NCBI GenBank assembly: GCA_964016885.1 | Contig: OZ024744.1 | Coordinates: 118,544,001 to 118,608,000 of the forward strand | From: Eledone cirrhosa | Lineage: Eukaryota | Direction of reading: 5' to 3' | DNA: 64,000 bases | Shown: in pieces, positions 1 to 58,800 of the stretch | Numbering within the stretch: position 1 is the first letter of the stretch | How the letters are laid out: the number at the start of each line of letters is the position of its first letter | Position numbers and translations under genes: made by a program | Notes under the pieces: generated by a model | What the model was told of the DNA's origin: nothing | Seen by the model: only the letters and a program-made list of their open reading frames with translations | The model's database searches: none

Positions 1-3000
1 TGTTCCATGGAGGTTTTAAAGGATGCAGTGTCTCGACTGCTAATAACTGATGCAGGTAGATTGTTGTATGCAGGTTTTAAAGGATGCAGTGTTTCGACAG
101 TTAACAACTGATGCAGGTAGTCTGTTCCATGGAGCTTTTAAAGGATGCAGTCTCTTGACAGCTAACAACTGATGCAGGGAGTTTGTTCCATGGAGCATTT
201 AAAGGATGCAGTGTCTCGACAGCTAACAACTGATGCAGGTAGTCTGTTCCATGGAGGTTTTAAAGGATGCAGTGTCTCGACAGCTAATAACTTATGCAGG
301 TAGTTTCTTCCATGGAGGTTTTAAAGGTTGCAGTGTCTCGACAGCTAATAAATGATGCTAGTAGTTTCCTCCATGGAGCTTTTAAAGGATGCAGTGTCTC
401 GACAGCTAATAACTGATGCAGGTAGTTTGTTCCATGGAGATTTTAAAGTAGCAGTGTCTCGACAGCTAACAACTGATGCAGGTAGTCTGTTCCATGGAGG
501 TTTTAAAGGATGCAGTGTCTCGACTGCTAATAAATGATGCTGGTAGTTTCTTCCATGGAGGTTTTAAAGGATGCAGTGTCTCGACAGCTAACAACTGATG
601 CAGGTAGTTTGTTCCATGGAGGTTTTAAAGGATGCAGTGTCTCGACAGCTAACAACTGACGCAGCGACTTTGTTCCATGGAGGTTTTAAAAAATGCAGTG
701 TCTCGACAGCTAATAAATGATGCTAGTAGTTTGTTCCATGGAGGTTTTAAAGGATGCAGTGTCTCGACAGCTAACAACTGATGCAGGTAGTTTGTTCCAT
801 GGAGGTTTTAAAGGGTGCAGCGTCTCGACAGCTAATAACTGATGTAGGTAGTTTGTTCCATGGAGGTTTTAAAGGATGCAGTGTCTCGACAGTTAACAAC
901 TGATGCAGGTAGTCTGTTCCATGGAGCTTTTAAAGGATGCAGTGTCTCGACAGCTAATAACTGATGCAGGTAGTTTGTTCCATGGAGGTTTTAAAGGATG
1001 CAGTGTCTCGACAGCTAATAACTGATGCTGGTAGTTTGTTCCATGGGGGTTTTAAAGGATGCAGTGTCTCGACAGCTAACAATTGATGCAGGTAGTTTCT
1101 TCCATGGAGGTTTTAAAGATGCAGTGTCTCGACAGCTAATAATTGATGCAGGGTATTTGTTCCATGGAGCTTTTAAAGGATGCAGTCTCTTGACAGCTAA
1201 CAACTGATGCAGGTAGTTTGTTCCATGGAGGTTTTAAAGGATGCAGTGTCACAACAGCTTATAACTGATGCAGGTAGTTTGTTCTATGGAGGTTTTAAAG
1301 GATGCAGTGTCTCGACAGCTAATAACTGATGCTGGTAGTTTGTTTCATGGAGGTTTTAAAGGATGCAGTGTCTCGACAGCTAACAACTGATGCAGGTAGT
1401 TTGGTCCATGGAGGTTTTAAAGGATGCAGTGTCTCGACAGCTAACAACTGATGCAGGTAGTTTGTTCCATGGAGGTTTTAAAGGATGCAGTGTCACAACA
1501 GCTTATAACTGATGCAGGTAGTTTGTTCTATGGAGGTTTTAAAGGATGCAGTCTCTCGACAGCTAATAACTGATGCAGCTAGTTTGTTCCATGGAGGTTT
1601 TAAAGGATGCAGTGTCTTGACAGCTAATAAATGATGCTGGTAGTTTGTTCCATGGAGGTTTTAAAGGATGCAGTGTCTCGACAGCTAATAACTGATGCAG
1701 GTAGTTTGTTCCATGGAGCTTTTAAAGGATGCAGTGTCTCAATAACTAACAACTGATGCAGGTAGTTTGTTCCATGGAGGTTTTAAAGGATGCAGTGTCT
1801 CAATAACTAACAACTGATGCAGCGAGTTTGGTCCATGGAAGTTTTAAAGGATGCAGTGTCTCGCCAGCTAATAACTGATGCAGGTATTTTGTTCCATGGA
1901 GGTTTTAAAGGATGCAGTTTCTCGACAGCTAATAACTGATTCAGGTAGTTTGTTCCATGGAGCTTTTAAAGGATGCAGTGTCTCAATAACTAATAACTGA
2001 TGCAGGTAGATTGTTGTATGCAGGTTTTAAAGGATGCAGTGTCTTGACAGCTAATAAATGATGCTGGTAGTTTGTTCCATGGAGGTTTTAAAGGATGCAG
2101 TGTCTCGACAGCTAACAACTGATGCAGGTAGTCTGTTCCATGGAGCTTTTAAAAGATGCAGTGTCTTGACAGCTAACAACTGATGCAGGTAGTTTGTTCC
2201 ATGGAGGTTTTAAAGGATGCAGTGTCTCGACAGCTAACAATTGATGCAGGTAGTTTGTTCCATGCAGGTTTTAAAGGATAAAGTGTCTCGACAGCTAATG
2301 ACTGATGCAGGTAGTTTGTTCCATGGAGGTTTTAAAGGATGTAGTATCTCGATAGCTAACAACTGATGCAGCGAGTTTGTTCCATGGAGGTGTTAAAAAA
2401 TGCAGTGTCTCGACAGCTCATAAATGATGCAGGTAGTTTGTTCCATGGAGGTTTTAAAGGATGCAGGGTCTCGACAGCTAACAACTGATGCAGGTAGTTT
2501 GTTCCATGGAGGTTTTAAAGGATGCAGTGTCTTGACAGCTAATAAATGATGCTGGTAGTTTGTTCCATGGAGGTTTTAAAGGATGCAGTGTCTCGACAGC
2601 TAACAACTGATGCAGGTAGTCTGTTCCATGGAGCTTTTAAAAGATGCAGTGTCTTGACAGCTAACAACTGATGCAGGTAGTTTGTTCCATGGAGGTTTTA
2701 AAGGATGCAGTGTCTCGACAGCTAACAATTGATGCAGGTAGTTTGTTCCATGCAGGTTTTAAAGGATAAAGTGTCTCGACAGCTAATGACTGATGCAGGT
2801 AGTTTGTTCCATGGAGGTTTTAAAGGATGTAGTATCTCGATAGCTAACAACTGATGCAGCGAGTTTGTTCCATGGAGGTGTTAAAAAATGCAGTGTCTCG
2901 ACAGCTCATAAATGATGCAGGTAGTTTGTTCCATGGAGGTTTTAAAGGATGCAGGGTCTCGACAGCTAACAACTGATGCAGGTAGTTTGTTCCATGGAGG

Positions 3001-6000
3001 TTTTAAAGGATGCAGTGTCTTGACAGCTTATAACTGATGCAGCGTGTTTGTTCCATGGAGGTTTTAAAGGATGCAGTGTCTCGACAGTTAACAACTGATG
3101 CAGGTAGTCTGTTCCATGGAGCTTTTAAAGGATGCAGTGTCTCGACAGCTAACAACTGATGCAGGTAGTTTTTTCCATGGGTGTTTTAAAGGATGCAGTG
3201 TATTGACAGCTAATTATTGATGCAGGGAATTTGTTCCATGGAGCTTTTAGAGGATGCAGTGTCTCGACAGCTAACAACTGATGCAGGTAGTTTGTTCCAT
3301 GGGTGTTTTAAAGGATGCAGTGTCTCGACAGCTAACAACTGATGCAGGTAGTTTCTTCCATAGAGGTTTTAAAGGATGCAGTGTTTCGACAGCTAATAAC
3401 TGATGCAGGTATTTTGTTCCATGGAGGTTTTAAAGGATGCAGTCTCTCAATAACTAATAACTGATGCTGGTAGTTTGTTCCATGGAGGTTTTAAAGGATG
3501 CAGTGTCTCGACAGCTAATAACTGATGCAGGTATTTTGTTCCATGGAGGTTTTAAAGGATGCAGTCTCTCGACAGCTAATAACTGATGCAGCTAGTTTGT
3601 TCCATGGAGGTTTTAAAGGATGCAGTGTCTTGACAGCTAATAAATGATGCTGGTAGTTTGTTCCATGGACGTTTTAAAGATACTGTGTCTTGACAGCTAA
3701 TAACTGATGCAGGTAGTTTTTTCCATGGAAGTTTTAAAGGATGTAGTGTCTCGACAGCTAATAAATGATGCTGGCAGTTTCTTCCATGGAGGTTTTAAAG
3801 GATGCAGTGTCTCGACAGCTATCAACTGATGCAGGTAGTCTGTTCCATGGGTGTTTTAAAGGATGCAGTGTCTCGACAGCTAACAACTGATGCAGGTAGT
3901 TTGTTCCATGGAGGTTTTAAAGGATGCAGTGACTCGACAGCTAATAACTGATGCAGGTAGTTTGTTCTATGGAGGTTTTAAAGGATGCAGTCTCTTGACA
4001 GCTAACAACTGATGCAGCCAACTTGTTCCATGGAGGTTTTAAAAAATGCAGTGTCTCGACAGCTAATAAATGATGCTAGTAGTTTGTTCCATGGAGGTTT
4101 TAAAGGATGCAGTGTCTCGACAGCTAACAACTGATGCAGGTAGTTTGTTCCATGGCGGTTTTAAAGATTGCAGCGTCTCGACAGCTAATAACTGATGTAG
4201 GTAGTTTGTTCCATGGAGGTTTTAAAGAATGCAGTGTCTCGACAGTTAACAACTGATGCAGGTAGTCTGTTCCATGGAGCTTTTAAAGGATGCAGTGTCT
4301 CGACAGCTAATAACTGATGCAGGTAGTTTGTACCATGGAGGTTTTAAAGGATGCAGTGTCTCGACAGCTAATAACTTATGCAGGTAGTTTGTTCCATGGG
4401 GGTTTTAAAGGATGCAGTGTCTCGACAGCTAACAACTGATGCAGGTAGTTTCTTCCATGGAGGTTTTAAAGATGCAGTGTCTCGACAGCTAATAATTGAT
4501 GCAGGGTATTTGTTCCATGGAGCTTTTAAAGGATGCAGTCTCTTGACAGCTAACAACTGATGCAGGTAGTTTGTTCCATGGAGGTTTTAAAGGATGCAGT
4601 GTCACAACAGCTTATAACTGATGCAGGTATTTTGTTCCATTGAGGTTTTAAAGGATGCAGTGTCTTGACAGCTAATAAATGATGTTGGTAGTTTGTTCCA
4701 TGGAGGTTTTAAAGGATGCAGTGTCTCGACAGCTAATAACTGATGCAGGTAGTTTGTTCCATGGAGGTTTTAAAGGATGCAGTGTCTCAATAACTAACAA
4801 CTGATGCAGCGAGTTTGGTGCATGGAAGTTTTAAAGGATGCAGTGTCTCGACAGCTAATAACTGATGCAGGTATTTTGTTCCATGGAGGTTTTAAAGGAT
4901 GCAATTTCTCGACAGCTAATAACTGATGCAGGTAGTTTGTTCCATGGAGCTTTTAAAGGATGCAGTGTCTCGACAGCTAACAACTGATGCAGCGACTTTG
5001 TTCCATGGAGGTTTTAAAAAATGCAGTGTCTCGACAGCTAATAATTGATGCTAGTAGTTTGTTCCATGGAGGTTTTAAAGGATGCAGTGTCTCGACAGCT
5101 AACAACTGATGCAGGTATTTTGTTCCATGGAGGTTTTAAAGAGTGCAGCGTCTCGACAGCTAATAACTGATGTAGGTAGTTTGTTCCATGGAGGTTTTAA
5201 AGGATGCAGTGTCTCGACATTTAACAACTGATGGAGGTAGTCTGTTCCATGGAGCTTTTAAAGGATGCAGTGTCTCGACAGCTAATAACTGATGCAGGTA
5301 GTTTGTTCCATGGAGGTTTTAAAGGATGCAGTGTCTCGACAGCTAATAACTGATGCTGGTAGTATGTTCCATGGGGGTTTTAAAGGATGCAGTGTCTCGA
5401 CAGCTAACAACTGATGCAGGTAGTTTCTTCCATGGAGGTTTTAAAGATGCAGTGTCTCGACAGCTAATAATTGATGCAGGGTATTTGTTCCATGGAGCTT
5501 TTAAAGGATGCAGTCTCTTGACAGCTAACAACTGATGCAGGTAGTTTGTTCCATGGAGGTTTTAAAGGATGCAGTGTCACAACAGCTTATAACTGATGCA
5601 GGTAGTTTGTTCTATGGAGGTTTTAAAGGATGCAGTGTCTCGACAGCTAATAACTGATGCTGGTAATTTGTTCCATGGAGGTTTTAAAGGATGCAGTATC
5701 TCGACAGCTAATAACTGATGATGGTAGTTTGTTCCATGGAGGTTTTATAGGATGCAGTGTCTCGACAGCTAACAACTGATGCAGGTAGTTTGGTCCATGG
5801 AGGTTTTAAAGGATGCAGTGTCTCGACAGCTAATAACTGATGCAGGTATTTTGTTCCATTGAGGTTTTAAAGGATGCAGTCTCTCGACAGCTAATAACTG
5901 ATGCAGCTAGTTTGTTCCATGGAGGTTTTAAAGGATGCAATGTCTTGACAGCTAATAAATGATGCTGGTAGTTTGTTCCATGGAGGTTTTAAAGGATGCA

Positions 6001-9000
6001 GTGTCTCGACAGCTAATAACTGATGCAGGTAGTTTGTTCCATGGAGCTTTTAAAGGATGCAGTGTCTCAACAGCTAACAACTGATGCAGGTAGTTTGTTC
6101 CATGGAGGTTTTAAAGGATGCAGTGTCTCAATAACTAACAACTGATGCAGCGAGTTTGGTCCATGGAAGTTTTAAAGGATGCAGTGTCTCGACAGCTAAT
6201 AACTGATGCAGGTATTTTGTTCCATGGAGGTTTTAAAGGATGCAGTGTCTCGACTGCTAATAACTGATGCAGGTAGATTGTTGTATGCAGGTTTTAAAGG
6301 ATGCAGTGTTTCGACAGTTAACAACTGATGCAGGTAGTCTGTTCCATGGAGCTTTTAAAGGATGCAGTCTCTTGACAGCTAACAACTGATGCAGGGAGTT
6401 TGTTCCATGGAGCATTTAAAGGATGCAGTGTCTCGACAGCTAACAACTGATGCAGGTAGTCTGTTCCATGGAGGTTTTAAAGGATGCAGTGTCTCGACAG
6501 CTAATAACTTATGCAGGTAGTTTCTTCCATGGAGGTTTTAAAGGATGCAGTGTCTCGACAGCTAATAAATGATGCTGGTAGTTTCCTCCATGGAGCTTTT
6601 AAAGGATGCAGTGTCTCGACAGCTAATAACTGATGCAGGTAGTTTGTTCCATGGAGATTTTAAAGTAGCAGTGTCTCGACAGCTAACAACTGATGCAGGT
6701 AGTCTGTTCCATGGAGGTTTTAAAGGATGCAGTGTCTCGACTGCTAATAAATGATGCTGGTAGTTTCTTCCATGGAGGTTTTAAAGGATGCAGTGTCTCG
6801 ACAGCTAACAACTGATGCAGGTAGTTTGTTCCATGGAGGTTTTAAAGGATGCAGTGTCTCGACAGCTAACAACTGACGCAGCGACTTTGTTCCATGGAGG
6901 TTTTAAAAAATGCAGTGTCTCGACAGCTAATAAATGATGCTAGTAGTTTGTTCCATGGAGGTTTTAAAGGATGCAGTGTCTCGACAGCTAACAACTGATG
7001 CAGGTAGTTTGTTCCATGGAGGTTTTAAAGGGTGCAGCGTCTCGACAGCTAATAACTGATGTAGGTAGTTTGTTCCATGGAGGTTTTAAAGGATGCAGTG
7101 TCTCGACAGTTAACAACTGATGCAGGTAGTCTGTTCCATGGAGCTTTTAAAGGATGCAGTGTCTCGACAGCTAATAACTGATGCAGGTAGTTTGTTCCAT
7201 GGAGGTTTTAAAGGATGCAGTGTCTCGACAGCTAATAACTGATGCTGGTAGTTTGTTCCATGGGGGTTTTAAAGGATGCAGTGTCTCGACAGCTAACAAT
7301 TGATGCAGGTAGTTTCTTCCATGGAGGTTTTAAAGATGCAGTGTCTCGACAGCTAATAATTGATGCAGGGTATTTGTTCCATGGAGCTTTTAAAGGATGC
7401 AGTCTCTTGACAGCTAACAACTGATGCAGGTAGTTTGTTCCATGGAGGTTTTAAAGGATGCAGTGTCACAACAGCTTATAACTGATGCAGGTAGTTTGTT
7501 CTATGGAGGTTTTAAAGGATGCAGTGTCTCGACAGCTAATAACTGATGCTGGTAGTTTGTTTCATGGAGGTTTTAAAGGATGCAGTGTCTCGACAGCTAA
7601 CAACTGATGCAGGTAGTTTGGTCCATGGAGGTTTTAAAGGATGCAGTGTCTCGACAGCTAACAACTGATGCAGGTAGTTTGTTCCATGGAGGTTTTAAAG
7701 GATGCAGTGTCACAACAGCTTATAACTGATGCAGGTAGTTTGTTCTATGGAGGTTTTAAAGGATGCAGTCTCTCGACAGCTAATAACTGATGCAGCTAGT
7801 TTGTTCCATGGAGGTTTTAAAGGATGCAGTGTCTTGACAGCTAATAAATGATGCTGGTAGTTTGTTCCATGGAGGTTTTAAAGGATGCAGTGTCTCGACA
7901 GCTAATAACTGATGCAGGTAGTTTGTTCCATGGAGCTTTTAAAGGATGCAGTGTCTCAATAACTAACAACTGATGCAGGTAGTTTGTTCCATGGAGGTTT
8001 TAAAGGATGCAGTGTCTCAATAACTAACAACTGATGCAGCGAGTTTGGTCCATGGAAGTTTTAAAGGATGCAGTGTCTCGACAGCTAATAACTGATGCAG
8101 GTATTTTGTTCCATGGAGGTTTTAAAGGATGCAGTTTCTCGACAGCTAATAACTGATTCAGGTAGTTTGTTCCATGGAGCTTTTAAAGGATGCAGTGTCT
8201 CAATAACTAATAACTGATGCAGGTAGATTGTTGTATGCAGGTTTTAAAGGATGCAGTGTCTCGACAGTTAACAACTGATGCAGGTAGTCTGTTCCATGGA
8301 GCTTTTAAAAGATGCAGTGTCTTGACAGCTAACAACTGATGCAGGTAGTTTGTTCCATGGAGGTTTTAAAGGATGCAGTGTCTCGACAGCTAACAATTGA
8401 TGCAGGTAGTTTGTTCCATGCAGGTTTTAAAGGATAAAGTGTCTCGACAGCTAATAACTGATGCAGGTAGTTTGTTCCATGGAGGTTTTAAAGGATGTAG
8501 TATCTCGATAGCTAACAACTGATGCAGCGAGTTTGTTCCATGGAGGTGTTAAAAAATGCAGTGTCTCGACAGCTCATAAATGATGCAGGTAGTTTGTTCC
8601 ATGGAGGTTTTAAAGGATGCAGGGTCTCGACAGCTAACAACTGATGCAGGTAGTTTGTTCCATGGAGGTTTTAAAGGATGCAGTGTCTTGACAGCTTATA
8701 ACTGATGCAGCGTGTTTGTTCCATGGAGGTTTTAAAGGATGCAGTGTCTCGACAGCTAATAACTGATGCAGGTATTTTGTTCGATGGAGGTTTTAAAGGA
8801 TGCAGTGTCTCGACTGCTAATAACTGATGCAGGTAGATTGTTGTATGCAGGTTTTAAAGGATGCAGTGTTTCGACAGTTAACAACTGATGCAGGTAGTCT
8901 GTTCCATGGAGCTTTTAAAGGATGCAGTCTCTTGACAGCTAACAACTGATGCAGGGAGTTTGTTCCATGGAGCATTTAAAGGATGCAGTGTCTCGACAGC

Positions 9001-12000
9001 TAACAACTGATGCAGGTAGTCTGTTCCATGGAGGTTTTAAAGGATGCAGTGTCTCGACAGCTAATAACTTATGCAGGTAGTTTCTTCCATGGAGGTTTTA
9101 AAGGATGCAGTGTCTCGACAGCTAATAAATGATGCTGGTAGTTTCCTCCATGGAGCTTTTAAAGGATGCAGTGTCTCGACAGCTAATAACTGATGCAGGT
9201 AGTTTGTTCCATGGAGATTTTAAAGTAGCAGTGTCTCGACAGCTAACAACTGATGCAGGTAGTCTGTTCCATGGAGGTTTTAAAGGATGCAGTGTCTCGA
9301 CTGCTAATAAATGATGCTGGTAGTTTCTTCCATGGAGGTTTTAAAGGATGCAGTGTCTCGACAGCTAACAACTGATGCAGGTAGTTTGTTCCATGGAGGT
9401 TTTAAAGGATGCAGTGTCTCGACAGCTAACAACTGACGCAGCGACTTTGTTCCATGGAGGTTTTAAAAAATGCAGTGTCTCGACAGCTAATAAATGATGC
9501 TAGTAGTTTGTTCCATGGAGGTTTTAAAGGATGCAGTGTCTCGACAGCTAACAACTGATGCAGGTAGTTTGTTCCATGGAGGTTTTAAAGGGTGCAGCGT
9601 CTCGACAGCTAATAACTGATGTAGGTAGTTTGTTCCATGGAGGTTTTAAAGGATGCAGTGTCTCGACAGTTAACAACTGATGCAGGTAGTCTGTTCCATG
9701 GAGCTTTTAAAGGATGCAGTGTCTCGACAGCTAATAACTGATGCAGGTAGTTTGTTCCATGGAGGTTTTAAAGGATGCAGTGTCTCGACAGCTAATAACT
9801 GATGCTGGTAGTTTGTTCCATGGGGGTTTTAAAGGATGCAGTGTCTCGACAGCTAACAATTGATGCAGGTAGTTTCTTCCATGGAGGTTTTAAAGATGCA
9901 GTGTCTCGACAGCTAATAATTGATGCAGGGTATTTGTTCCATGGAGCTTTTAAAGGATGCAGTCTCTTGACAGCTAACAACTGATGCAGGTAGTTTGTTC
10001 CATGGAGGTTTTAAAGGATGCAGTGTCACAACAGCTTATAACTGATGCAGGTAGTTTGTTCTATGGAGGTTTTAAAGGATGCAGTGTCTCGACAGCTAAT
10101 AACTGATGCTGGTAGTTTGTTTCATGGAGGTTTTAAAGGATGCAGTGTCTCGACAGCTAACAACTGATGCAGGTAGTTTGGTCCATGGCGGTTTTAAAGG
10201 ATGCAGTGTCTCGACAGCTAACAACTGATGCAGGTAGTTTGTTCCATGGAGGTTTTAAAGGATGCAGTGTCACAACAGCTTATAACTGATGCAGGTAGTT
10301 TGTTCTATGGAGGTTTTAAAGGATGCAGTCTCTCGACAGCTAATAACTGATGCAGCTAGTTTGTTCCATGGAGGTTTTAAAGGATGCAGTGTCTTGACAG
10401 CTAATAAATGATGCTGGTAGTTTGTTCCATGGAGGTTTTAAAGGATGCAGTGTCTCGACAGCTAATAACTGATGCAGGTAGTTTGTTCCATGGAGCTTTT
10501 AAAGGATGCAGTGTCTCAATAACTAACAACTGATGCAGGTAGTTTGTTCCATGGAGGTTTTAAAGGATGCAGTGTCTCAATAACTAACAACTGATGCAGC
10601 GAGTTTGGTCCATGGAAGTTTTAAAGGATGCAGTGTCTCGACAGCTAATAACTGATGCAGGTATTTTGTTCCATGGAGGTTTTAAAGGATGCAGTTTCTC
10701 GACAGCTAATAACTGATTCAGGTAGTTTGTTCCATGGAGCTTTTAAAGGATGCAGTGTCTCAATAACTAATAACTGATGCAGGTAGATTGTTGTATGCAG
10801 GTTTTAAAGGATGCAGTGTCTCGACAGTTAACAACTGATGCAGGTAGTCTGTTCCATGGAGCTTTTAAAAGATGCAGTGTCTTGACAGCTAACAACTGAT
10901 GCAGGTAGTTTGTTCCATGGAGGTTTTAAAGGATGCAGTGTCTCGACAGCTAACAATTGATGCAGGTAGTTTGTTCCATGCAGGTTTTAAAGGATAAAGT
11001 GTCTCGACAGCTAATAACTGATGCAGGTAGTTTGTTCCATGGAGGTTTTAAAGGATGTAGTATCTCGATAGCTAACAACTGATGCAGCGAGTTTGTTCCA
11101 TGGAGGTGTTAAAAAATGCAGTGTCTCGACAGCTCATAAATGATGCAGGTAGTTTGTTCCATGGAGGTTTTAAAGGATGCAGGGTCTCGACAGCTAACAA
11201 CTGATGCAGGTAGTTTGTTCCATGGAGGTTTTAAAGGATGCAGTGTCTTGACAGCTTATAACTGATGCAGCGTGTTTGTTCCATGGAGGTTTTAAAGGAT
11301 GCAGTGTCTCGACAGTTAACAACTGATGCAGGTAGTCTGTTCCATGGAGCTTTTAAAGGATGCAGTGTCTCGACAGCTAACAACTGATGCAGGTAGTTTT
11401 TTCCATGGGTGTTTTAAAGGATGCAGTGTATTGACAGCTAATTATTGATGCAGGGAATTTGTTCCATGGAGCTTTTAGAGGATGCAGTGTCTCGACAGCT
11501 AACAACTGATGCAGGTAGTTTGTTCCATGGGTGTTTTAAAGGATGCAGTGTCTCGACAGCTAACAACTGATGCAGGTAGTTTCTTCCATAGAGGTTTTAA
11601 AGGATGCAGTGTTTCGACAGCCAATAACTGATGCAGGTATTTTGTTCCATGGAGGTTTTAAAGGATGCAGTCTCTCAATAACTAATAACTGATGCTGGTA
11701 GTTTGTTCCATGGAGGTTTTAAAGGATGCAGTGTCTCGACAGCTAATAACTGATGCAGGTATTTTGTTCCATGGAGGTTTTAAAGGATGCAGTCTCTCGA
11801 CAGCTAATAACTGATGCAGCTAGTTTGTTCCATGGAGGTTTTAAAGGATGCAGTGTCTTGACAGCTAATAAATGATGCTGGTAGTTTGTTCCATGGACGT
11901 TTTAAAGATACTGTGTCTTGACAGCTAATAACTGATGCAGGTAGTTTTTTCCATGGAAGTTTTAAAGGATGTAGTGTCTCGACAGCTAATAAATGATGCT

Positions 12001-12504
12001 GGCAGTTTCTTCCATGGAGGTTTTAAAGGATGCAGTGTCTCGACAGCTATCAACTGATGCAGGTAGTCTGTTCCATGGGTGTTTTAAAGGATGCAGTGTC
12101 TCGACAGCTAACAACTGATGCAGGTAGTTTGTTCCATGGAGGTTTTAAAGGATGCAGTGACTCGACAGCTAATAACTGATGCAGGTAGTTTCTTACATGG
12201 AGGTTTTAAAGGATGCAGTGTCTCGGCAGCTAACAACTGATGCAGGTAGTTTGTTCCATGGGTGTTTTAAAGGATGCAGTATCTCGACAGCTAACAACTG
12301 ATGCAGGTAGTTTGTTCCATGGAGGTTTTAAAGGATGCAGTGTCTCGACAGCTAACAACTGATGCAGGGAGTTTGTTCCATGGAGGCTTTAAAGGATGCA
12401 GTGTCTTGACAGCTAACAACTGATGCAGGTAGTTTGTTCCATGGAGGTTTTAAAGGATGCAGTGTCTCAATAACTAACAACTGATGTAGGTAGTTTGTTC
12501 CATG
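1..12504. repeat. 61-bp tandem satellite (~205 monomers, open at the left window edge) derived from the C-terminal codons of the adjacent CR1-like LINE ORF2
   Basis: Consensus TGTTCCATGGAGGTTTTAAAGGATGCAGTGTCTCGACAGCTAA(C/T)AACTGATGCAGGTAGTT repeats continuously. The minus strand reads WNKLPASVVSCRDTASFKTSM and runs directly out of LINE ...HYFTLRVAEAWNKLP at 12504. Confidence 0.97.
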
Positions 12505-14110
12505 CTTCAGCAACTCTGAGCGTGAAATAATGTTTCCGAAAGTCATGGGAGTTGTGCTGTTTTCTAACCTTGTAGGCATGCCCACGTGTGTTAGACACAT
12601 GGAAATCAAAAAGGTACTCAGGGTTGTTTTTGGCAAGATGGTTACTAATTTTGTGGGTGTTTACCAAGTCAGTTGCCAGACATCAGAGCTTCAATGTATC
12701 CATGCCCAAGGAAGCAAGGCGTTCAGCATATGGTAGATGCCTGATGGAGGGTATTCACTTGGTTGCACGTCTCTGAACAGTTTCGAGGAAGTCAATATTT
12801 TGAACAAGATAGGGGTTCCAGACTGGTGATGCAAATTCTAAGTGTGGCTGCACCATAGCTATATACAGCTTTAAATAGATAACCAGAGAGTGGCTGACAA
12901 AGGTCTTGCTGAGTTATGCTAAGACACCCTCGGCCTTCTTGACAATCTTAGATACGTGCTTCGTCCAATGCAAATCGCTGACCATAATGCCCATGTCACG
13001 TTCACAAGAAGACTTCTTGATATTAGTGTTGAGGAGGCAGTATGTGGACGCTGGGTTTTTACTCCTAAAATGCATGGTGGTACACTTGTCCACGGCTAGC
13101 TTTAGTTGCCAGTCCGTGATCCATTTCTGCATTGTGTCCAGGTCTGATTGCAGGAAAGATCTCTCTGTTTTATCTCAAGGTACAGCTTGATGTCATCTGC
13201 ATATTTCAGTATTGTAGCATTCTTTAAGTTGGCACCTATGTCATTAATATATGCCACAAAAAAAGGGGACAAAGAACAGATCCCTGTGATACACCAGATG
13301 ACATCTCATATGGTGAGGAATGCTGTCCTAGAATCGTGACTACTTCCCTTCAACTGAGAATGAAGGACTTCAAACAATTTAAAAGATCATCCTTCACACC
13401 CATTGCAGAGAGTTTTGCCATAAGTCTTTTGTGTGGCACAGAATTGAAAGCTTTAGCAAAGTCAAGGTAAACAACATCCACCCATGAGCCGCCATCAGTG
13501 ATCCAGGTGATGTCCTCAAGAAACTCTATAAGTTGATCACAGCAGCTGGAGTTGGGGATAAATCCAAATTGCGAGGGCCGGATAAGACTGTGAGAGCTCC
13601 AGAAGTTCCAAAGTGTTTCTCTGACACAGGATTCCATCAGTTTGGCAATGCAGCTAGTAAGACTGACTGGACGATAATTCACAGGTGATGTGCGGTCACC
13701 CTTTTTGAACAGAGGAATGACACTGGCAGTTTTCCACTGTTCTGGAGTAGCACCGTTGTTCAGACAGAATTGGAAGAAATGTGATAGCTGGTGCAGAAGG
13801 AAGTACCCACTACATTTGAGAAGCAGGTACTTAACACCATCAAGACCAGGAGAGACATGGTTGCGTTTATTTTTAAGGTGACGTCGCAGCATTGCAGGTG
13901 TAAATTCCATAGTTGTAATAGAATCCGGTGTCAGAGATGGTGGAGATGGTACACTTTGGTCTTCAACAGTGAAAATGCCTGCATAGCATTCAGCAATGAG
14001 CTCTGCGCATTGCTTGGGGTCGTCAGTAATCTGGCTTGTGTGGGGATTGCGAAGAGGACCAACTGGAGAGTGAGGCCTCTGCTTTGAGGAAACATATTTC
14101 CAGAACACCT
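12505..14110 (-). mobile_element. 5'-truncated, degenerate CR1/L2/Jockey-group (CR1-like) LINE, ORF2 reverse transcriptase region
   Basis: ORF 13350-14108 has SPGLDG, VIPLFKKGDR..NYRPVSLTS, QFGF and VDVVYLDFAKAFNSVPH. Downstream frameshifted pieces include GVSQGSVL..LKYADDIKLY (~13180-13300), WQLKLAVDKC, TRGH and RVAEAWNKLP. Confidence 0.9.
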
Positions 14111-14689
14111 TACTATATATAGAGAGAGGGAGAAAAAAGAGAAAGAGACAGTGATGGAGAAATTAGTTTATCGAAGGGAGATAACCCAGCTAAATTGTTT
14201 TTAAAATACAATTTCGTTACATTTCTTTGGTTTATTTCTTGTTTGAAATCAAATATGTGTTAAAAATTATTTTTATACTTCTATTGATTTGCTTTTTCTA
14301 CAGAAGACTTTTTCCTAGGTTTATTGTCATGACAGTTGACTGGGAGAACTTTAGTGCCAACTCAAGTTTGACATTTTATTTAGAAAAGAAATGTAAAATA
14401 GACTTTTTGATGATTTAATATCAAAGTCATTATAAATACAATCAGATATTTGTTCGATTAGAGCAGAAAAATAAAGATTTCATTTTCAATTTGCTTTGGT
14501 TGTATATTTATAAAGTTCCATAAAGTCTATTTTTATGTGAAACATCAAGATTATAATATTTTTTTCTCGTTTTCAATTTATATTTTAATATGGAATATTT
14601 ATGTAATTAAGTATTAAATTGTGTATATATATATAATACCAACAGTAACTGGTCATTACAATCCCTATATATATATATCTGAACGAATT

Positions 14690-24932: not shown

Positions 24933-25642
24933 GTATAAAAGTTGATATCATATATTTTTATCGTTATTATTATAGAACACTCCACTTGAACACAAAAAGT
25001 CGTAGGTAAAAGTCCGAGTGGAGGTAGTTATCCGAGAGGCAGGGGACCAACCACACCCCTTCCGCCCTTGATTACCAAAATCTTAAAGGTTAGATTAGTT
25101 GATTACACGAAAAAAAATTCCACCCCACTAAAATGGAGTGGCGTGTTCTATAAATTTACCTTTTTTTTCTGTGTAACATGAATATAAGTATTGATATTAT
25201 TATTATATATTTTCTCATCCGGCAGGGGTCGCTCGCTGGCGGGGAGGGACTTCGCGGCCTCCTATCTGTGGAAACAATGGGGCTGGGGGAGCTGCCCCTT
25301 GGGACAGGCGAAGGTTGTGCGATGTGGGGGTGCCTGGGCAACTGGGATCTGGTGTTGGTCGTACGGAGATCAATCTTGCAAAATGGGGATATTTAACGGA
25401 TATGGACATAGTGTGTGACTGCGGTATCAAATCACAAACTACGCAGCACCTGATATGACCCCCTGCTGGAACACCCCTGTACAGCATTGGACTAAGTACA
25501 GTCTAATGAGAAAGGACAGCAATGTGTTCAGTTGTGGTGGAACCACATCTAGCCAAGCTTTGTAGCTGACACTCTTGTGGATATGAGAAGAATCTGGTGG
25601 GGAATATACGTATATAAATGTAGTGCTGTAAAGAAGATTTAA

Positions 25643-26750
25643 GTGGAGGTATGTGGTGGCCTAGTAGTAAGGGTGTTAGACCGGGTTGTGTGTTGTGTTC
25701 TTGAACAAAACACTACATTTCACATTACTCCAGTATACTACAGTGGAGGTATGTGGTGGCCTAGTGGTAAGGGTGTTAGACCGGGTTATGTGTTGTGTTC
25801 TTGAACAAAACACTACATTTCACATTACTCCAGTATACAACAGTGGAGGTCTGTGGTGGCCTAGTAGTAAGGGTGTTAGACTGGGTTGTGTGTTGTGTTC
25901 TTGAACAAAACACTACATTTCACATTACTCCAGTATACTACAGTGGAGGTATGTGGTGGCCTAGTGGTAAGGTTATTAGAGTGGGTTGTGTGTTGTGTTC
26001 TTGAACAAAACACTACATTTCACATTACACCAGTATACTACAGTGGAGGTATGTGGTGGCCTAGTGGTAAGGGTGTTAGACTGGGTTGTGTGTTGTGTTC
26101 TTGAACAAAACACTTCATTTCACATTACTCCAGTATACTACAGTAGAGGTATGTGGTGGCTTAGTGGTAAGGGTGTTAGACTGGGTTGTGTGTTGTGTTC
26201 TTGAACAAAACACTACATTTCACATTACTCCAGTATACTACAGTGGAGGTATGTGGTGGCCTAGTGGTAAGGGTGTTAGACTGGGTTGTGTGTTGTGTTC
26301 TTGAACAAGACACTTCATTTCACATTACTCCAGTATACGACAGTGAAGGTATGTGGTGGCCTAGTAGTAAGGGTGTTAGACTGGGTTGTGTGTTGTGTTC
26401 TTGAACAAAACACTACATTTCACATTACTCCAGTATACTACAGTGGAGGTATGTGGTGGCCTAGTAGTAAGGGTGTTAGACTGGGTTGTGTGTTGTGTTC
26501 TTGAACAAAACACTTCATTTCACATTACTCCAGTATACTACAGTGGAGGTATGTGGTGGCCTAGTGGTAAGGGTGTTAGACTAGGTTGTGTGTTGTGTTC
26601 TTGAACAAAACACTTCATTTCACATTACTCCAGTATACTACAGTGGAGGTATGTGGTGGCCTAGTGGTAAGGGTGTTAGACTGGGTTGTGTGTTGTGTTC
26701 TTCAACAAAACACTACATTTCACATTACTCCAGTATACTACAGTGGAGGT
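25643..26750 (+). repeat. 100-bp tandem array (11 units) derived from a B-box-deleted tRNA-SINE head
   Basis: Unit GTGGAGGTATGTGGTGGCCTAGTGGTAAGGGTGTTAGACTGGGTTGTGTGTTGTGTTCTTGAACAAAACACTACATTTCACATTACTCCAGTATACTACA, exact 100-bp period. Similar to the SINE at 20725-20845. Confidence 0.93.
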
Positions 26751-26789
26751 ATATATATATATATCTTATAAGAAACACAAAATATTGTA

Positions 26790-53779: not shown

Positions 53780-54825
53780 TACTACCTCACCTGTATTACC
53801 TCCCCTATTACCTGCCCTGTATTTCTATTCCCCTGTATTACCTCCCCTGTACTACTACCTCTCCTGTATTACCTCCCCTGCATTACCTCCTCTGTACTAC
53901 TAGCTCCCCCATGTTACCTCTCCTGTATTACTACCCCTGTACTACTACATCCCCTGTATTACGTCTCCTGTACTATTACCTTACCTGTACTACTACCTCC
54001 CCTGTATTACCTCCCCTGTACTACTACCTCCCCTGTACTACCTCCCCTGTATTACTACCTCCCTGTATTACCTCCCCTGTACTACCCCCCCCCCTGTATT
54101 ACCTCACCTGTATTACCTCCCCTGTACCACTACCTCCCCTGTACTACTACCTCCTCTGTATTACCTCCCCTGTACTACCTCCCCTGTACTACTACCCCCC
54201 CCCCTGTATTACCTCCCCTGTATTACCTCTGCTGTACTACCTCCCCTGTATCACCTCCCCTGTACTATTCCACTGTACTACCTCCCCTGTATTACCCCCT
54301 GTACTACCTCCCCTGTATTACTACCTCCACTGTATTACTACCTCCCCTGTATTACTACCTCCCCTGTATTACTACCTCCACTGTATTACTACCTCCCCTG
54401 TATTACTACCTCCACTGTATTACTACCTCCCCTGTATTACTACCTCCACTGTATTACTACCTCCCCTGTATTACTACCTCCACTGTATTACTACCTCCCC
54501 TGTATTACTACCTCCCCTGTATTACTACCTCCCCTGTATTACTACCTCCCCTGTATTACTACCTCCACTGTATTACTACCTCCCCTGTACTGCCTCCCCT
54601 GTACTACTACCTCCTCTGTACTCCTACCTCCCCTTTACTACTACCTCCCCTGTACTACTCCACCACCTGTATTACTACCTCCACTGTACTGCCTCCCCTG
54701 TACTACTACCTCCCCTGTACTACTACCTCCCCTGTATTACTACCTCCTCTGTACTACCTCCCCTGTATTACTACCTCCTCTGTACTACCTCCCCTGTATT
54801 ACCTCCCCTGTGTTACCTCACCTGT
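53780..54825. repeat. Degenerate short-period minisatellite (CTACCTCCCCTGTATTA-like, 14-17 bp units)
   Basis: Repeated TACCTCCCCTGTA(T/C)TAC motifs. Confidence 0.93.
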
Positions 54826-54968
54826 TTAATAATCACCTCTAAAGTAAAGAATATCAACTGATTTTGAGAAATATCTTCTATTGATTAAGTATGCTTATAC
54901 TATAAGCATACTTATAGTAACCTGTAGGAAAATGAAAAGTTAATGAGTTCGTTTTGTTTCTGAAATAG

Positions 54969-55123
54969 GTAAAGGAACTTACAAATGGAAAAGATCTGGG
55001 AATATGTATGATGGAGATTGGAGTCATGATAAAAGAAATGGATTTGGAACCTTAAGTATTCCAGACAGTCATGGAGGTCTTCGGAAACAGTACGCAGGAG
55101 GTTGGAAAAATGACAGGCGACAT
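54969..55123 (+). CDS. MORN3: MORN3-like coding exon 2
   Basis: Acceptor TAG|GT at 54968 completes the phase-1 Gly. KGTYKWKRSGNMYDGDWSHDKRNGFGTLSIPDSHGGLRKQYAGGWKNDRRH. Donor CAT|GTAAGA, phase 0. Confidence 0.92.
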
Positions 55124-55450
55124 GTAAGAGGACGTTTCTTATTTACATTTCTAATGAAATACACTCTATTTCAATTAATGAAGTATTTTAAGGGATATCA
55201 TTACTAAGACAGTAATTTAATGTTATTTTGAAAGATTTTAATTTAGATAGGAACTTTTTAAAATGGGTGGTTTTATTTGATAGAACCAGAGCTGGTTTTG
55301 ACTGGGTTGGTAACTAAAGAGTTAAATATACCACAGGCAAATATAAATATGGTTATAATATATAAATGTTTGTATAAATATGTGATGGTGGAAATGATGA
55401 TGATGATGATGATGTAACTATTTATCTAGTTCTATTATTTCTATTCTCAG

Positions 55451-55610
55451 GGTTATGGCGCCCATTTTTACAATTCCGAGGAATATTATGAAGGAGAATG
55501 GTATTGTGACAAAAGGAGTGGTTGGGGTCGGATGTATTATACTGATGGTAGTATCTATGAAGGAGAATGGTATGATGGAATGAGATTTGGACAAGGCATG
55601 TTACGGTTAG
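55451..55610 (+). CDS. MORN3: MORN3-like coding exon 3
   Basis: Acceptor TTCTCAG|. GYGAHFYNSEEYYEGEWYCDKRSGWGRMYYTDGSIYEGEWYDGMRFGQGMLRL. Donor G|GTTGGT at 55611. MORN repeats YEGEW..G...G.G. Confidence 0.92.
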
Positions 55611-55630
55611 GTTGGTGTTTCAGACGAATA

Positions 55631-55852: not shown

Positions 55853-58800
55853 CAGAGATTCTTTCCTGAGACATTCTAACTACATGTCATAGTATCAGAG
55901 CTGTGATCTCTCAATTCAATGTTTCTTTCCTGAGACATTCTAACCACGTGTCATAGTATCAGAGCTGTTATCTCTCAATTCAATGTTTCTTTCCTGAGAC
56001 ATTCTAACCACGTGTCATAGTATCAGAGCTGCGATCTCTCAATTCAGTGATTCTTTTCTGAGACATTCTAACTACATGTCATAGTATCAGAGCCGTGATC
56101 TCTCAATTCACAGATTCTTTCCTGAGACATCCTAACCACATGTCTGTAGTATCAGAGCTGTGATCTCTCAATTCAGAGATTCTTTCCTGAGACATTCTAA
56201 CTACATGTCATAGTATCAGAGCTGTGATCTCTAAATTCAGAGATTCTTTTCTGAGACATCCTAACCACATGTCTATAGTATCAGAGCTGTGATCTCTCAA
56301 TTCAGAGATTCTTTCCTGCGATATTCTAACCACATGTCACAGTATCAGAGCTGTGATCTCTCAATTCAGAGATTCTTTCCTGAGACATTCTAACCACATG
56401 TCATAGTATCAGAGCTGTGATCTCTCAATTCAGAGATTCTTTCCTGAGACATTCTAACCACATGTCATAGTATCAGAGCTGTGATCTCTCAATTCAGAGA
56501 TTCTTTCCTGAGACATTCTAACCACATGTCACAGTATCAGAGCTGTGATCTCTCAATTCAGAGATTCTTTCCTGAGACATTCTAACCACATGTCATAGTA
56601 TCAAAGGTGTGATCTCTCAATTCAGAGATTCTTTCCTGAGACATTCTAACCACATGTCAAAGTATCAGAGCTGTGATCTCTAAATTCAGTGATTCTTTCC
56701 TGTGACATTCTAACCACATGTCATAGTATCAGAGCTGTGGTCTCTCAACTCAGAGTTTCTTTCCTGTGACATTCTAACCACATGTCTGTAGTATCACAGC
56801 TGTGATCTCTGAATTCAGAGATTCTTTCCTGAGACATTCTAACTACATGTCATAGTATTAGAGCTGTGATCTCTTAATTTAGAGATTCTTTTCTGAGTCA
56901 TTCTAACCACATGTCTATAATATCAGAGCTGTGAACTCTCAATTCAATGTTTCTTTCCTGAGACATTCTAACCACATGTCATAGTATCAGAGCTGTGATC
57001 TCTCAATTCAGAGATTCTTTCCTGAGACATTCTAACTACATGTCATAGTATCAGAGCTGTTATCTCTCAATTCAGAGATTCTTTCCTGAGACATTCTAAC
57101 CACATGTCATAGTATCAGAGCTGTTATCTCTCAATTCAGAGATTCTTTCCTGAGACATTCTAACCACGTGTCATAGTATCAGAGCTGTTATCTCTCAATT
57201 CAATGTTTCTTTCCTGAGACATTCTAACCACGTGTCATAGTATCAGAGCTGCGATCTCTCAATTCAGTGATTCTTTTCTGAGACATTCTAACTACATGTC
57301 ATAGTATCAGAGCCGTGATCTCTCAATTCACAGATTCTTTCCTGAGACATTCTAAACACATATCATAGTATCAGAGCTGTGATCTCTCAATTCAGAGATT
57401 CTTTCCTGAGACATCCTAACCACATGTCTGTAGTATCAGAGCTGTGATCTCTCAATTCAGAGATTCTTTCCTGAGACATTCTAACTACATGTCATAGTAT
57501 CAGAGCTGTGATCTCTAAATTCAGAGATTCTTTTCTGAGACATCCTAACCACATGTCTGTAATATCAGAGCTGTGATCTCTCAATTCAGAGATTCTTTCC
57601 TGAGACATTCTAACCACATGTCACAGTATCAGAGCTGTGATCTCTCAATTCAGAGATTCTTTCCTGAGACATTCTAACCACATGTCATAGTATCAAAGCT
57701 GTGATCTCTCAATTCAGAGATTCTTTCCTGAGACATTCTAACCACATGTCAAAGTATCAGAGCTGTGATCTCTAAATTCAGTGATTCTTTCCTGTGACAT
57801 TCTAACCACATGTCATAGTATCAGAGCTGTGGTCTCTCAACTCAGAGTTTCTTTCCTGTGACATTCTAACCACATGTCTGTAGTATCACAGCTGTGATCT
57901 CTGAATTCAGAGATTCTTTCCTGAGACATTCTAACTACATGTCATAGTATTAGAGCTGTGATCTCTTAATTTAGAGATTCTTTTCTGAGTCATTCTAACC
58001 ACATGTCTATAGTATCAGAGCTGTGATCTCTCATTTCATAGATTCTTTCATGAGACATTCTAACCACATGTCATAGTATCAGAGCAGTGATGTCTCAATT
58101 CAGAGATTCTTTCCTGGGACATTCTAACCACATGTCATAGTATCAGAGCTGTGATCTCTCAATTCACAAATTCTTTCCAGAGACATTCTAACCACAGGTC
58201 ATAGTATCAGAGCTGTGATCTCTCATTTCAGAGTTTCTTTCCTAAGACATTTTAACCACATGTCATAGTATCAGAGCTGTGATCTCCCAATTCAGAGACT
58301 CTCTCCTGAGACATTCTAACCACATGTCTGTAGTATCAGAGCTGTGATCTCCCAATTCAGAGACTCTCTCCTGAGACATTCTAACCACATGCCCATAGAT
58401 AGAATTAGAGCTGTGATACCTCAATTTAGAGATTCTTTCCTGAGTCATTCTAACTACATGTCATAGTAGCAGAGCTGTGATCTCTCAATTCACAGATTCT
58501 TTCATGAGTCATTCTAACTACATGTCATAGTATCAGAGCTGTGATCTCTCAATTCACAGATTCTTTCCTTTAGTCATTCTAACCACATGTCATAGATTCA
58601 GAGCTGTGATCTCTCAATTCACAGATTCTTTTCTTGAGTCATTCTAACCACATGTCATAGTATCAGAGCCGTGATCTCTCAATTCACAGATTCTTTCCTG
58701 AGACATTCTAACTACATGTCAAAGAATCAGAGCTGTGATCTCTCATTTCAGAGATTCTTTCCTGAGACATTTGAACCACATGCCCATAGAATCAGAGCTA

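What the first reader, a model, noticed from the sequence alone, without database searches (positions are those of the whole stretch)
1..14110. A 12.5-kb satellite grown out of the last codons of a CR1-like LINE ORF2, parent still attached
Seen: the 61-bp monomer is, on the minus strand, the direct continuation of the adjacent LINE ORF2 (..HYFTLRVAEA|WNKLPASVVSCRDTASFKTSM). The switch point is a shared CATG (GAAGCATGGAAC in the LINE versus CTCCATGGAAC between monomers). Known: CR1-group ORF2s end in a F..RV...WN.LP..VV......FK motif, and TE-derived satellites exist. Inference: a microhomology-bounded 61-bp piece was duplicated in place and then amplified more than 200-fold, so this locus could be the birthplace of the satellite.
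Basis: partly seen in the sequence, partly recalled or inferred. Interest (0 to 1): 0.85.

Follow-up and report, generated by a model that had tools for sequence, protein, structure and literature searches.

The report
Satellite spreading between jumping-gene copies
A 61-kb tandem repeat sits inside one broken copy of a jumping gene, the same 61-letter piece is repeated inside at least 874 copies across the genome, and tell-tale variants show that the repeat joint is often foreign to its host copy, so it likely spreads between neighbouring copies by recombination rather than being born once here.

Summary
Observation confirmed, 'birthplace' not supported. The 61-bp array runs 48 kb beyond the window: 60,807 bp, 998 units, with the LINE resuming in register at the far end. 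Other copies carry the unit once, between CATG...CATG inside a 10-bp inverted repeat. But 874 copies carry two or more units, against 2,999 with one, and this array holds 414 of 25,186 exact junctions. Array-bearing copies are scattered over the LINE tree. They sit near chromosome ends (73 of 78, against 7 of 69 single copies), and arrays under 3 Mb apart share variants. In a marked subfamily, 18 arrays have foreign junctions and 2 have their own; that subfamily's junction occurs in 6 foreign hosts, clustered on two chromosomes. Best reading: rare seeding at the hairpin-bracketed CATG, then likely spread of the junction between LINE copies by ectopic exchange, then local block duplication. It works like Drosophila Rsp-like spread (PMC7403614). 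The scan noted a CR1-end satellite in another genome before (e1-7790172).

The parts
1..12504 (-). 61-bp tandem array, part inside the window (205 units). It continues left to G000:C28:118495697: 60,807 bp, 998 units, then 51 nt of the LINE's ORF2 end and 3' tail.
12444..12504 (-). Unit 1: the segment near the end of ORF2 (WNKLP..FKTSM) that the family carries once, ten codons before the stop in intact-looking copies
12499..12508 (-). Arm 1 (GAAGCATGGA) of the 10-bp inverted repeat with a central CATG. Arm 2 (TCCATGCTTC) lies at the far end of the array; in single-unit copies the two arms bracket the unit and fold as a stem.
12505..14114 (-). 5'-truncated, broken CR1-like LINE ORF2 body (host copy), 88-92% identical to long family copies
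13353..14111 (-). Open 253-aa stretch with the N-terminal half of the RT domain (Pfam RVT_1, E=1.8e-14); relatives carry endonuclease + RT

Best explanation
The array is a minisatellite that lies inside one dead LINE copy, and its head-to-tail joint likely spreads from LINE copy to LINE copy by ectopic recombination. Shown: every array examined is the same 61-bp ORF2-end segment, nearly always with LINE body upstream and LINE tail downstream. Shown: junctions often carry another subfamily's letters, nearby arrays share variants, and arrays concentrate at chromosome ends and on small chromosomes. Inferred step 1 (seeding, rare): a template slip from CATG to CATG, brought together by the 10-bp hairpin, makes the first two-unit copy. 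This happened at least twice, because two junction types differ in the three letters next to CATG. Inferred step 2 (spread, common): a single-unit copy repairs a break on, or recombines with, a nearby array and picks up a junction. It has up to 61 bp of homology on both sides, so no new microhomology event is needed. Gene conversion by strand invasion and re-entry of an excised circle would leave the same trace and are not separated here. Inferred step 3 (growth): unequal exchange and multi-kb block duplication expand some arrays, this one to 998 units. No function is implied; it is likely selfish, recombination-driven turnover.
For: Both LINE flanks: 82 of 90 arrays end in the LINE tail, 5 ran off the fetched stretch, 3 end in other DNA (two of the 82 were mis-scored by the parser and read by eye). 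Of 20 exits with no exact entry match, 16 have LINE body upstream, 2 are unresolved and 2 (one duplicated locus) start mid-unit. Polyphyly: 11 label changes among 69 copies, and none of 200 bootstrap trees has one change. Foreign junctions: the 'ACT' subfamily (1,200 hits, 99 of the first 100 single-unit) has 18 arrays whose last unit is native while no displayed inner junction is, against 2 with own-type junctions. The ACT junction occurs in 8 copies, 6 of them non-ACT hosts, with 4 copies within 0.74 Mb on C12 and 2 within 0.6 Mb on C22; imported tracts span the junction and differ between hosts. A two-variant haplotype found at 6 loci genome-wide has 3 of them, all arrays, within C1:29.1-31.3 Mb, two in hosts of other subfamilies. 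Variant sharing among 90 arrays: r=0.108 under 1 Mb, 0.091 at 1-3 Mb, 0.013 at 3-30 Mb, about 0 beyond; 0 of 5,000 permutations reach the first two. The LINE body 60-600 nt upstream shows 0.001 and 0.023. Position: 73 of 78 array copies against 7 of 69 single copies lie within 35 Mb of an end of C1 or C2; these chromosomes hold 28% of singles but 9% of arrays. Growth: identical blocks of up to 41 units recur 236 units apart, with no fixed higher-order period.
Against: A self-made junction could be overwritten later by conversion, so foreign junctions prove exchange but not that exchange made the first extra unit. Several small arrays are fully host-type (L080, L174, L194, L241, L244: four units each; L089, L092). 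The 18:2 ratio comes from a subfamily whose hairpin is weaker and may not hold for the main subfamilies. Five of the six foreign hosts of the ACT junction belong to one young subfamily, which a small array-carrying source element could also explain. Flanks next to the unit show weak local sharing too (last 60 nt of body r=0.05-0.08; tail p about 0.04-0.05). The tree is weakly supported: starred branches force only 2 changes and no AU test was run. The hairpin is not unusually stable (z about -1 to -1.5), and a 10-bp inverted repeat appears somewhere in 12% of shuffles. There is no recombination map: reading 'distal and small chromosomes' as 'high recombination' is general knowledge, and the 35-Mb cut was chosen after seeing the data. 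For this particular array no foreign subfamily marker was found (0 GG and 0 ACT units), so how its own first junction arose is unknown.
Confidence: 0.68

Rival explanations
1. Hot spot only: each copy duplicates its own unit independently by slippage at the hairpin-bracketed CATG, more often where recombination is high, and foreign letters come from later conversion between existing arrays.
For: Host-type small arrays with private variants in all units (L080, L194, L089). At least two independent CATG-exact breakpoints exist. The longest inverted repeat in 1.76 kb of the LINE brackets the unit exactly, and no other duplication was seen in 106 kb of aligned LINE sequence.
Against: Many two-unit copies would need two events each (self-duplication, then overwrite): L074, L079, L091, L169, L189, L247, L250, L251, L252, L263, L268. 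The ACT-type junction is rare and clustered (8 copies) rather than spread over about 1,200 ACT copies.
Confidence: 0.22
2. An active LINE source already carried several units, and retrotransposition scattered the arrays, which then grew.
For: A two-unit copy would only swap the last ten ORF2 residues for a short new end (inference). Five young-subfamily copies share the ACT junction. The multi-unit label is somewhat clustered on the tree (3 of 500 shuffles as low).
Against: Arrays occur in all subfamilies sampled while most members of each are single-unit. Single copies cover whole chromosomes and arrays do not. Few arrays begin mid-array, as 5' truncation would often cause. Variant sharing decays with physical distance, which insertion does not produce.
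Confidence: 0.06
3. This locus is the single birthplace, and other arrays are its offspring.
For: It has the commonest junction type, an older-type host and 360 unit types.
Against: It is one of at least 874 such copies and holds 1.6% of exact junctions. Other arrays sit in their own LINE copies with their own variants. A second junction type arose elsewhere.
Confidence: 0.02
4. Assembly artefact.
For: No read or contig laid here spans the locus.
Against: No gaps, 360 unit types, in-register LINE flanks at both ends, and hundreds of short arrays with the same build. Contigs across unit junctions occur in two runs from organisms A and B.
Confidence: 0.02

Closest known systems
Rsp-like satellite spreading into 1.688 clusters on the Drosophila X (Sproul et al. 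2020, PMC7403614; passages read)
   Same: Proposed two-step model: a rare microhomology event makes a joint, then interlocus gene conversion or eccDNA re-entry spreads it to loci with homologous sequence. The same junction is shared between loci and has discordant neighbours.
   Different: There one existing satellite invades another. Here the acceptors are dispersed single-unit LINE copies and the transferred piece is the head-to-tail joint that first makes them tandem. The scale is at least 874 loci genome-wide, with a strong bias to chromosome ends and small chromosomes, and LINE subfamily letters mark donor and host.
TE-derived minisatellites and multilocus TRs in human (Ahmed & Liang 2012, PMC3389668; parts 2 and 3 of 4 read); Haber-Louis flanking-repeat model as cited there and in PMC6947457 (passages)
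   Same: [quoted passage not shown]
   Different: That survey found 185 multilocus clusters, relative abundance under 0.5 for Alu subfamilies (given without units), no genomic hot spots and mostly local best matches. Here one breakpoint pair is used in about 23% of matched copies, the direct repeat is 4 nt inside an inverted repeat, and junctions are often imported.
CR1-derived satellites of chicken (HinfI/SCR1; Cen repeats from CR1-C) and L1-derived cetacean satellite (seen only as listed in reviews PMC9659126 and PMC6947457)
   Same: Satellite monomer taken from the ORF2 end or 3' region of a CR1/LINE.
   Different: As summarised in those passages these are satellites with a TE fragment in the monomer. 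Here hundreds of arrays remain inside their parent copies with all sizes from 2 to 998 units.
Mouse B1-derived (GGCAGA)n minisatellite family and MaLR-derived Ms6-hm (listed in PMC9659126 and PMC6947457; that the B1 family expanded at many copies is recalled, not read)
   Same: One spot of a retroelement turns into tandem arrays.
   Different: Very short units; I saw no claim of junction transfer between copies in the passages read.

Membership tests
TE-derived tandem repeat (minisatellite/satellite) | Monomer is a segment present once in the parent element | tested here: met
   26 of 29 other copies single-unit, 2 multi-unit, 1 partly deleted; 2,999 exact single-unit hits
TE-derived tandem repeat (minisatellite/satellite) | Head-to-tail array with local homogenisation | tested here: met
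   998 units; 2.8 mismatches per unit within arrays, 3.8 between arrays, 4.4 between single copies
Haber-Louis minisatellite origin | Unit flanked by a 5-10 bp direct repeat | tested here: not met
   The direct repeat is CATG, 4 nt, set in a 10-bp inverted repeat; works like the model but falls below its stated range
Seed-and-spread satellites (Rsp-like/1.688 type) | Same junction shared by many loci | tested here: met
   874 entries and 678 exits with identical breakpoints
Seed-and-spread satellites (Rsp-like/1.688 type) | Junction-adjacent sequence discordant with the host locus | tested here: met
Seed-and-spread satellites (Rsp-like/1.688 type) | Acceptor homology already present before the array | tested here: inconclusive
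   Arrays are nearly always inside LINE copies, but orthologous empty sites in relatives could not be examined
Seed-and-spread satellites (Rsp-like/1.688 type) | Repeat found on extrachromosomal circles | not testable with these tools
   No eccDNA data
CR1-group LINE (host) | ORF2 with AP-endonuclease plus RT | tested here: met
   RVT_1 in the window; the closest relatives (88% and 66% identity) carry PF14529/PF03372 + PF00078. This copy lacks the endonuclease part through 5' truncation.
CR1-group LINE (host) | C-terminal FF..R....WN.LP..(V/I)V motif (the link to CR1 is recalled) | tested here: met
   Present in the window and in the 6 relatives printed
CR1-group LINE (host) | 3' end in a short tandem repeat rather than poly(A), and frequent 5' truncation (recalled features) | tested here: met
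   Tails end in (ATT)n in most copies; bodies from about 30 nt to over 1,500 nt
CR1-group LINE (host) | RT phylogeny places it in the CR1 clade rather than L2, Crack or Daphne | not tested
   No named reference RTs among the hits

The most novel reading that the evidence does not exclude
A contagious satellite: once one copy of a dead LINE acquires a head-to-tail joint, that joint homes into the family's other dispersed single-unit copies by local ectopic recombination. It has converted about a fifth of the copies, and most of those at chromosome ends, into expandable arrays up to 61 kb. Dispersed retrotransposons then act as a pre-laid network of landing pads for satellite birth. A second LINE-derived array in the same window suggests the process is general in this genome.
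Probability: 0.55. Interest if true: 0.75.

Novelty: new variant of a known kind. Interest (0 to 1): 0.6.

Why it matters
How a satellite gets its first duplication and how it reaches new loci are long-standing questions that are usually answered after the traces are gone. Here every stage is present at once (1, 2, 3 ... 998 units), each array is still inside its parent copy, and LINE subfamily letters label donor and host. This lets one count seeding against spread, measure the distance over which non-allelic copies exchange DNA (about 3 Mb), and use the share of array-bearing copies as a candidate historical recombination map. No function for the array is indicated.

Tried and rejected
Single birthplace, array-carrying source element for the bulk, and orphan satellites without LINE flanks: rejected. 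Segmental duplication as the cause of shared variants at C1:29-31 Mb: matches between those loci are essentially confined to LINE and array sequence and truncation points differ. One true duplicated pair was seen elsewhere (L329/L330). Higher-order repeat in this array: none; the best lag is 236 units with only a shallow dip. Rest of the LINE tail further left: not found in 11.7 kb. Other slippage sites in the LINE end: 0 tandem duplications in 177 copies. Hairpin stability: not significant against shuffles. Sequencing runs: no RNA holder listed; laid contigs and RAD reads are family-wide and say nothing locus-specific. Pfam found nothing for the last 71 aa and no convincing hit for the flanks of the second array. 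Scan look-ups by sequence and by genome were empty. Paper searches listed no description of this family or of junction transfer between LINE copies. The library lacks most subscription papers, and no supplements were read.
Full report
What is there. TRF finds a 61-bp array of 205 copies at 1-12504. On the minus strand a 5'-truncated, broken LINE ORF2 (12505 to about 14114; RVT_1 E=1.8e-14; closest relatives with endonuclease + RT) runs in frame into unit 1 at GAAG|CATGGAAC. The window is G000:C28:118544001-118608000 in a 3.0-Gb genome. Neighbouring stretches show that the array continues 48.3 kb to the left. It is 60,807 bp long with 998 units and 360 types. At the far end the LINE resumes exactly, CTC|CATG|CTTCCTGAGAT.., for 51 nt before the tail is cut. 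So the array lies wholly inside one LINE copy. It has no fixed higher-order period; identical blocks of up to 41 units recur 236 units apart, and the last units are more uniform than the first.

The parent segment. Of 29 other copies, 26 carry the unit once, 2 carry 3 and 4 units, and 1 is partly deleted. CATG stands at both ends in 25 of 28. In 18 of 28 the two CATG sit in a perfect 10-bp inverted repeat, GAAGCATGGA..TCCATGCTTC. It is the longest inverted repeat in 1.76 kb of a natural copy and is the stem in all minimum-energy folds, though the folds are not unusually stable (z about -1 to -1.5) and such a repeat occurs somewhere in 12% of shuffles. Fifteen direct repeats of 6-8 nt lie in the last 500 nt, yet 177 copies (106 kb aligned) showed no other tandem duplication of 15 nt or more. 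Microhomology length alone therefore does not pick this site.

Not one birthplace. The junction 15-mer has 25,186 exact hits (control 2), 414 of them in this array. Exact patterns count 874 LINE-to-array entries, 678 array-to-tail exits and 2,999 single-unit copies, so about 23% of matched copies are multi-unit; these counts are lower bounds. I fetched 90 of the 100 listed entries. They hold from 2 to at least 59 units; 82 end in the LINE tail, 5 ran off the fetched stretch and 3 end in other DNA. Of 20 exits lacking an exact entry, 16 have LINE body upstream, 2 are unresolved and 2 (one duplicated locus) start mid-unit. On a tree of body plus tail (69 copies with at least 290 aligned body bases; shorter copies left out) the multi-unit label needs 11 changes, and no bootstrap tree of 200 allows one. 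Support is weak (starred branches force 2), and the label is somewhat clustered towards long-branch, older-looking copies (3 of 500 shuffles as low).

Position. On C1 and C2, 73 of 78 array copies but 7 of 69 single copies (a one-variant subset) lie within 35 Mb of an end (Fisher p=4e-27; threshold chosen after looking). These two chromosomes hold 29% of the genome, 28% of singles and 9% of arrays. A subset listing shows arrays along small chromosomes of 24-44 Mb such as C18, C20, C22, C25 and C26. That these are high-recombination regions is general knowledge and was not measured here. This window is 18 Mb from the end of a 136.5-Mb contig.

Junctions are often foreign. One subfamily ends its unit in ..AAGACACT|CATG instead of ..AAAACCTC|CATG (1,200 hits; 99 of the first 100 single-unit). 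Self-duplication would repeat ACT at every junction. Instead, 18 arrays end in a native ACT unit and an ACT-type tail while none of their displayed inner junctions is ACT; only 2 ACT hosts have own-type junctions. The ACT junction has 13 hits in 8 copies: four on C12 at 36.31-37.05 Mb (two ACT hosts, and two hosts of a young 'GG' subfamily, one directly beside an ACT array), three on C22 and one on an unplaced contig. In the six non-ACT hosts the foreign letters sit at the junction, mostly on both sides of it, and the tracts differ. Five of these six hosts are of one young subfamily. A preference for near-identical flanks would explain that, but a small multi-unit source cannot be excluded. 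A second marker (G41 plus GG) occurs at 6 loci genome-wide; three are arrays within C1:29.1-31.3 Mb, one native and two in hosts of other subfamilies, without shared flanks. Across 90 arrays, variant profiles correlate at 0.108 under 1 Mb (88 pairs), 0.091 at 1-3 Mb (128 pairs), 0.013 at 3-30 Mb and about 0 beyond; none of 5,000 permutations reaches the first two values, and the result holds without CpG and subfamily sites. The LINE body further upstream shows 0.001 and 0.023; the 60 nt next to the unit and the tail show a weak signal, as tracts centred on the unit would give. Against this, several small arrays are wholly host-type (L080, L174, L194, L241, L244, L089, L092), and this window's array has no GG or ACT units.

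Mechanism. Shown: growth inside LINE copies, one breakpoint pair, exchange of junction-spanning DNA between non-allelic copies within about 3 Mb, bias to chromosome ends and small chromosomes. Inferred: rare seeding by a CATG-to-CATG slip at the hairpin (at least twice); common spread when a single-unit copy picks up a junction from a nearby array by gene conversion or circle re-entry; growth by unequal exchange. Confidence 0.68. The main rival, independent self-duplication with later overwriting, gets 0.22.

Known parallels. Sproul et al. (PMC7403614, passages) propose the same seed-then-spread logic for Rsp-like entering 1.688 clusters. Ahmed & Liang (PMC3389668, parts 2-3 of 4) list 7,276 human TE-derived repeats, 185 multilocus clusters and no genomic hot spots. 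Reviews list CR1- and L1-derived satellites and the Haber-Louis model (PMC9659126, PMC6947457, passages); PMC8303610 (passages) describes microsatellite seeding by snake CR1. Eight searches listed no paper on this family or on junction transfer between dispersed LINE copies; the library is incomplete and supplements were not read. An earlier scan note describes a 49-bp CR1-end satellite in another genome (unchecked). The CR1 label rests on domain content, a recalled motif and tail type; clade placement was not tested.

Verdict. A real feature and a new variant of a known kind. The locus is ordinary as 'a TE-derived satellite' and wrong as 'the birthplace'. The family-wide pattern is an unusually well-marked natural experiment on how satellites start and spread. 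Interest 0.6.

Noticed in passing
window 55853-64000, continuing to about G000:C28:118608572; L271:560-980: A second array (64-bp unit, about 136 copies) also lies inside the ORF end of another LINE-like element on the minus strand, with both flanks attached and a short deletion at the entry (RTE-like by recalled motifs; Atlas lead only). Natural single-unit copies show TCTCTG at the entry, and the same 6-mer precedes the exit here. The family has 7,408 pattern hits with large arrays on C2 and C18.
   Followed up: partly
window 25642-26752: 100-bp x 11 array, 96% matches, whose unit starts like a tRNA-derived SINE head (recalled resemblance).
   Followed up: no
window 54947-55615 (+): Two exon-like stretches with MORN repeats (Pfam E=4.8e-11 and 3.6e-06), between a 17-bp array (53780-54811) and the 64-bp array; the arrays may lie in introns of this gene.
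   Followed up: partly
L243 / L241, G000:C12:36310200-36311100: Two LINE copies of different subfamilies lie head to tail and both carry the rare ACT junction (3 and 4 units): a candidate site where that junction arose or first jumped.
   Followed up: partly
L080, L174, L194, L241, L244: The five arrays that are fully host-type in marked subfamilies all have exactly four units, as two doublings would give.
   Followed up: no
G000:C28:118495697-118496550 (far end of the array): The last 14 units differ by only 1-2 letters and share A37/A27/A15, unlike the diverse units near the LINE body: the array is polar.
   Followed up: no
L003, G000:C28:119261759-119262349: One of the two best matches to the host body (93%) is a single-unit copy 0.7 Mb away on the same contig.
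   Followed up: no
G000:C3:64186935-64192310: Three identical single-unit hits 2,651 bp apart: a larger tandem duplication that includes a LINE end.
   Followed up: no
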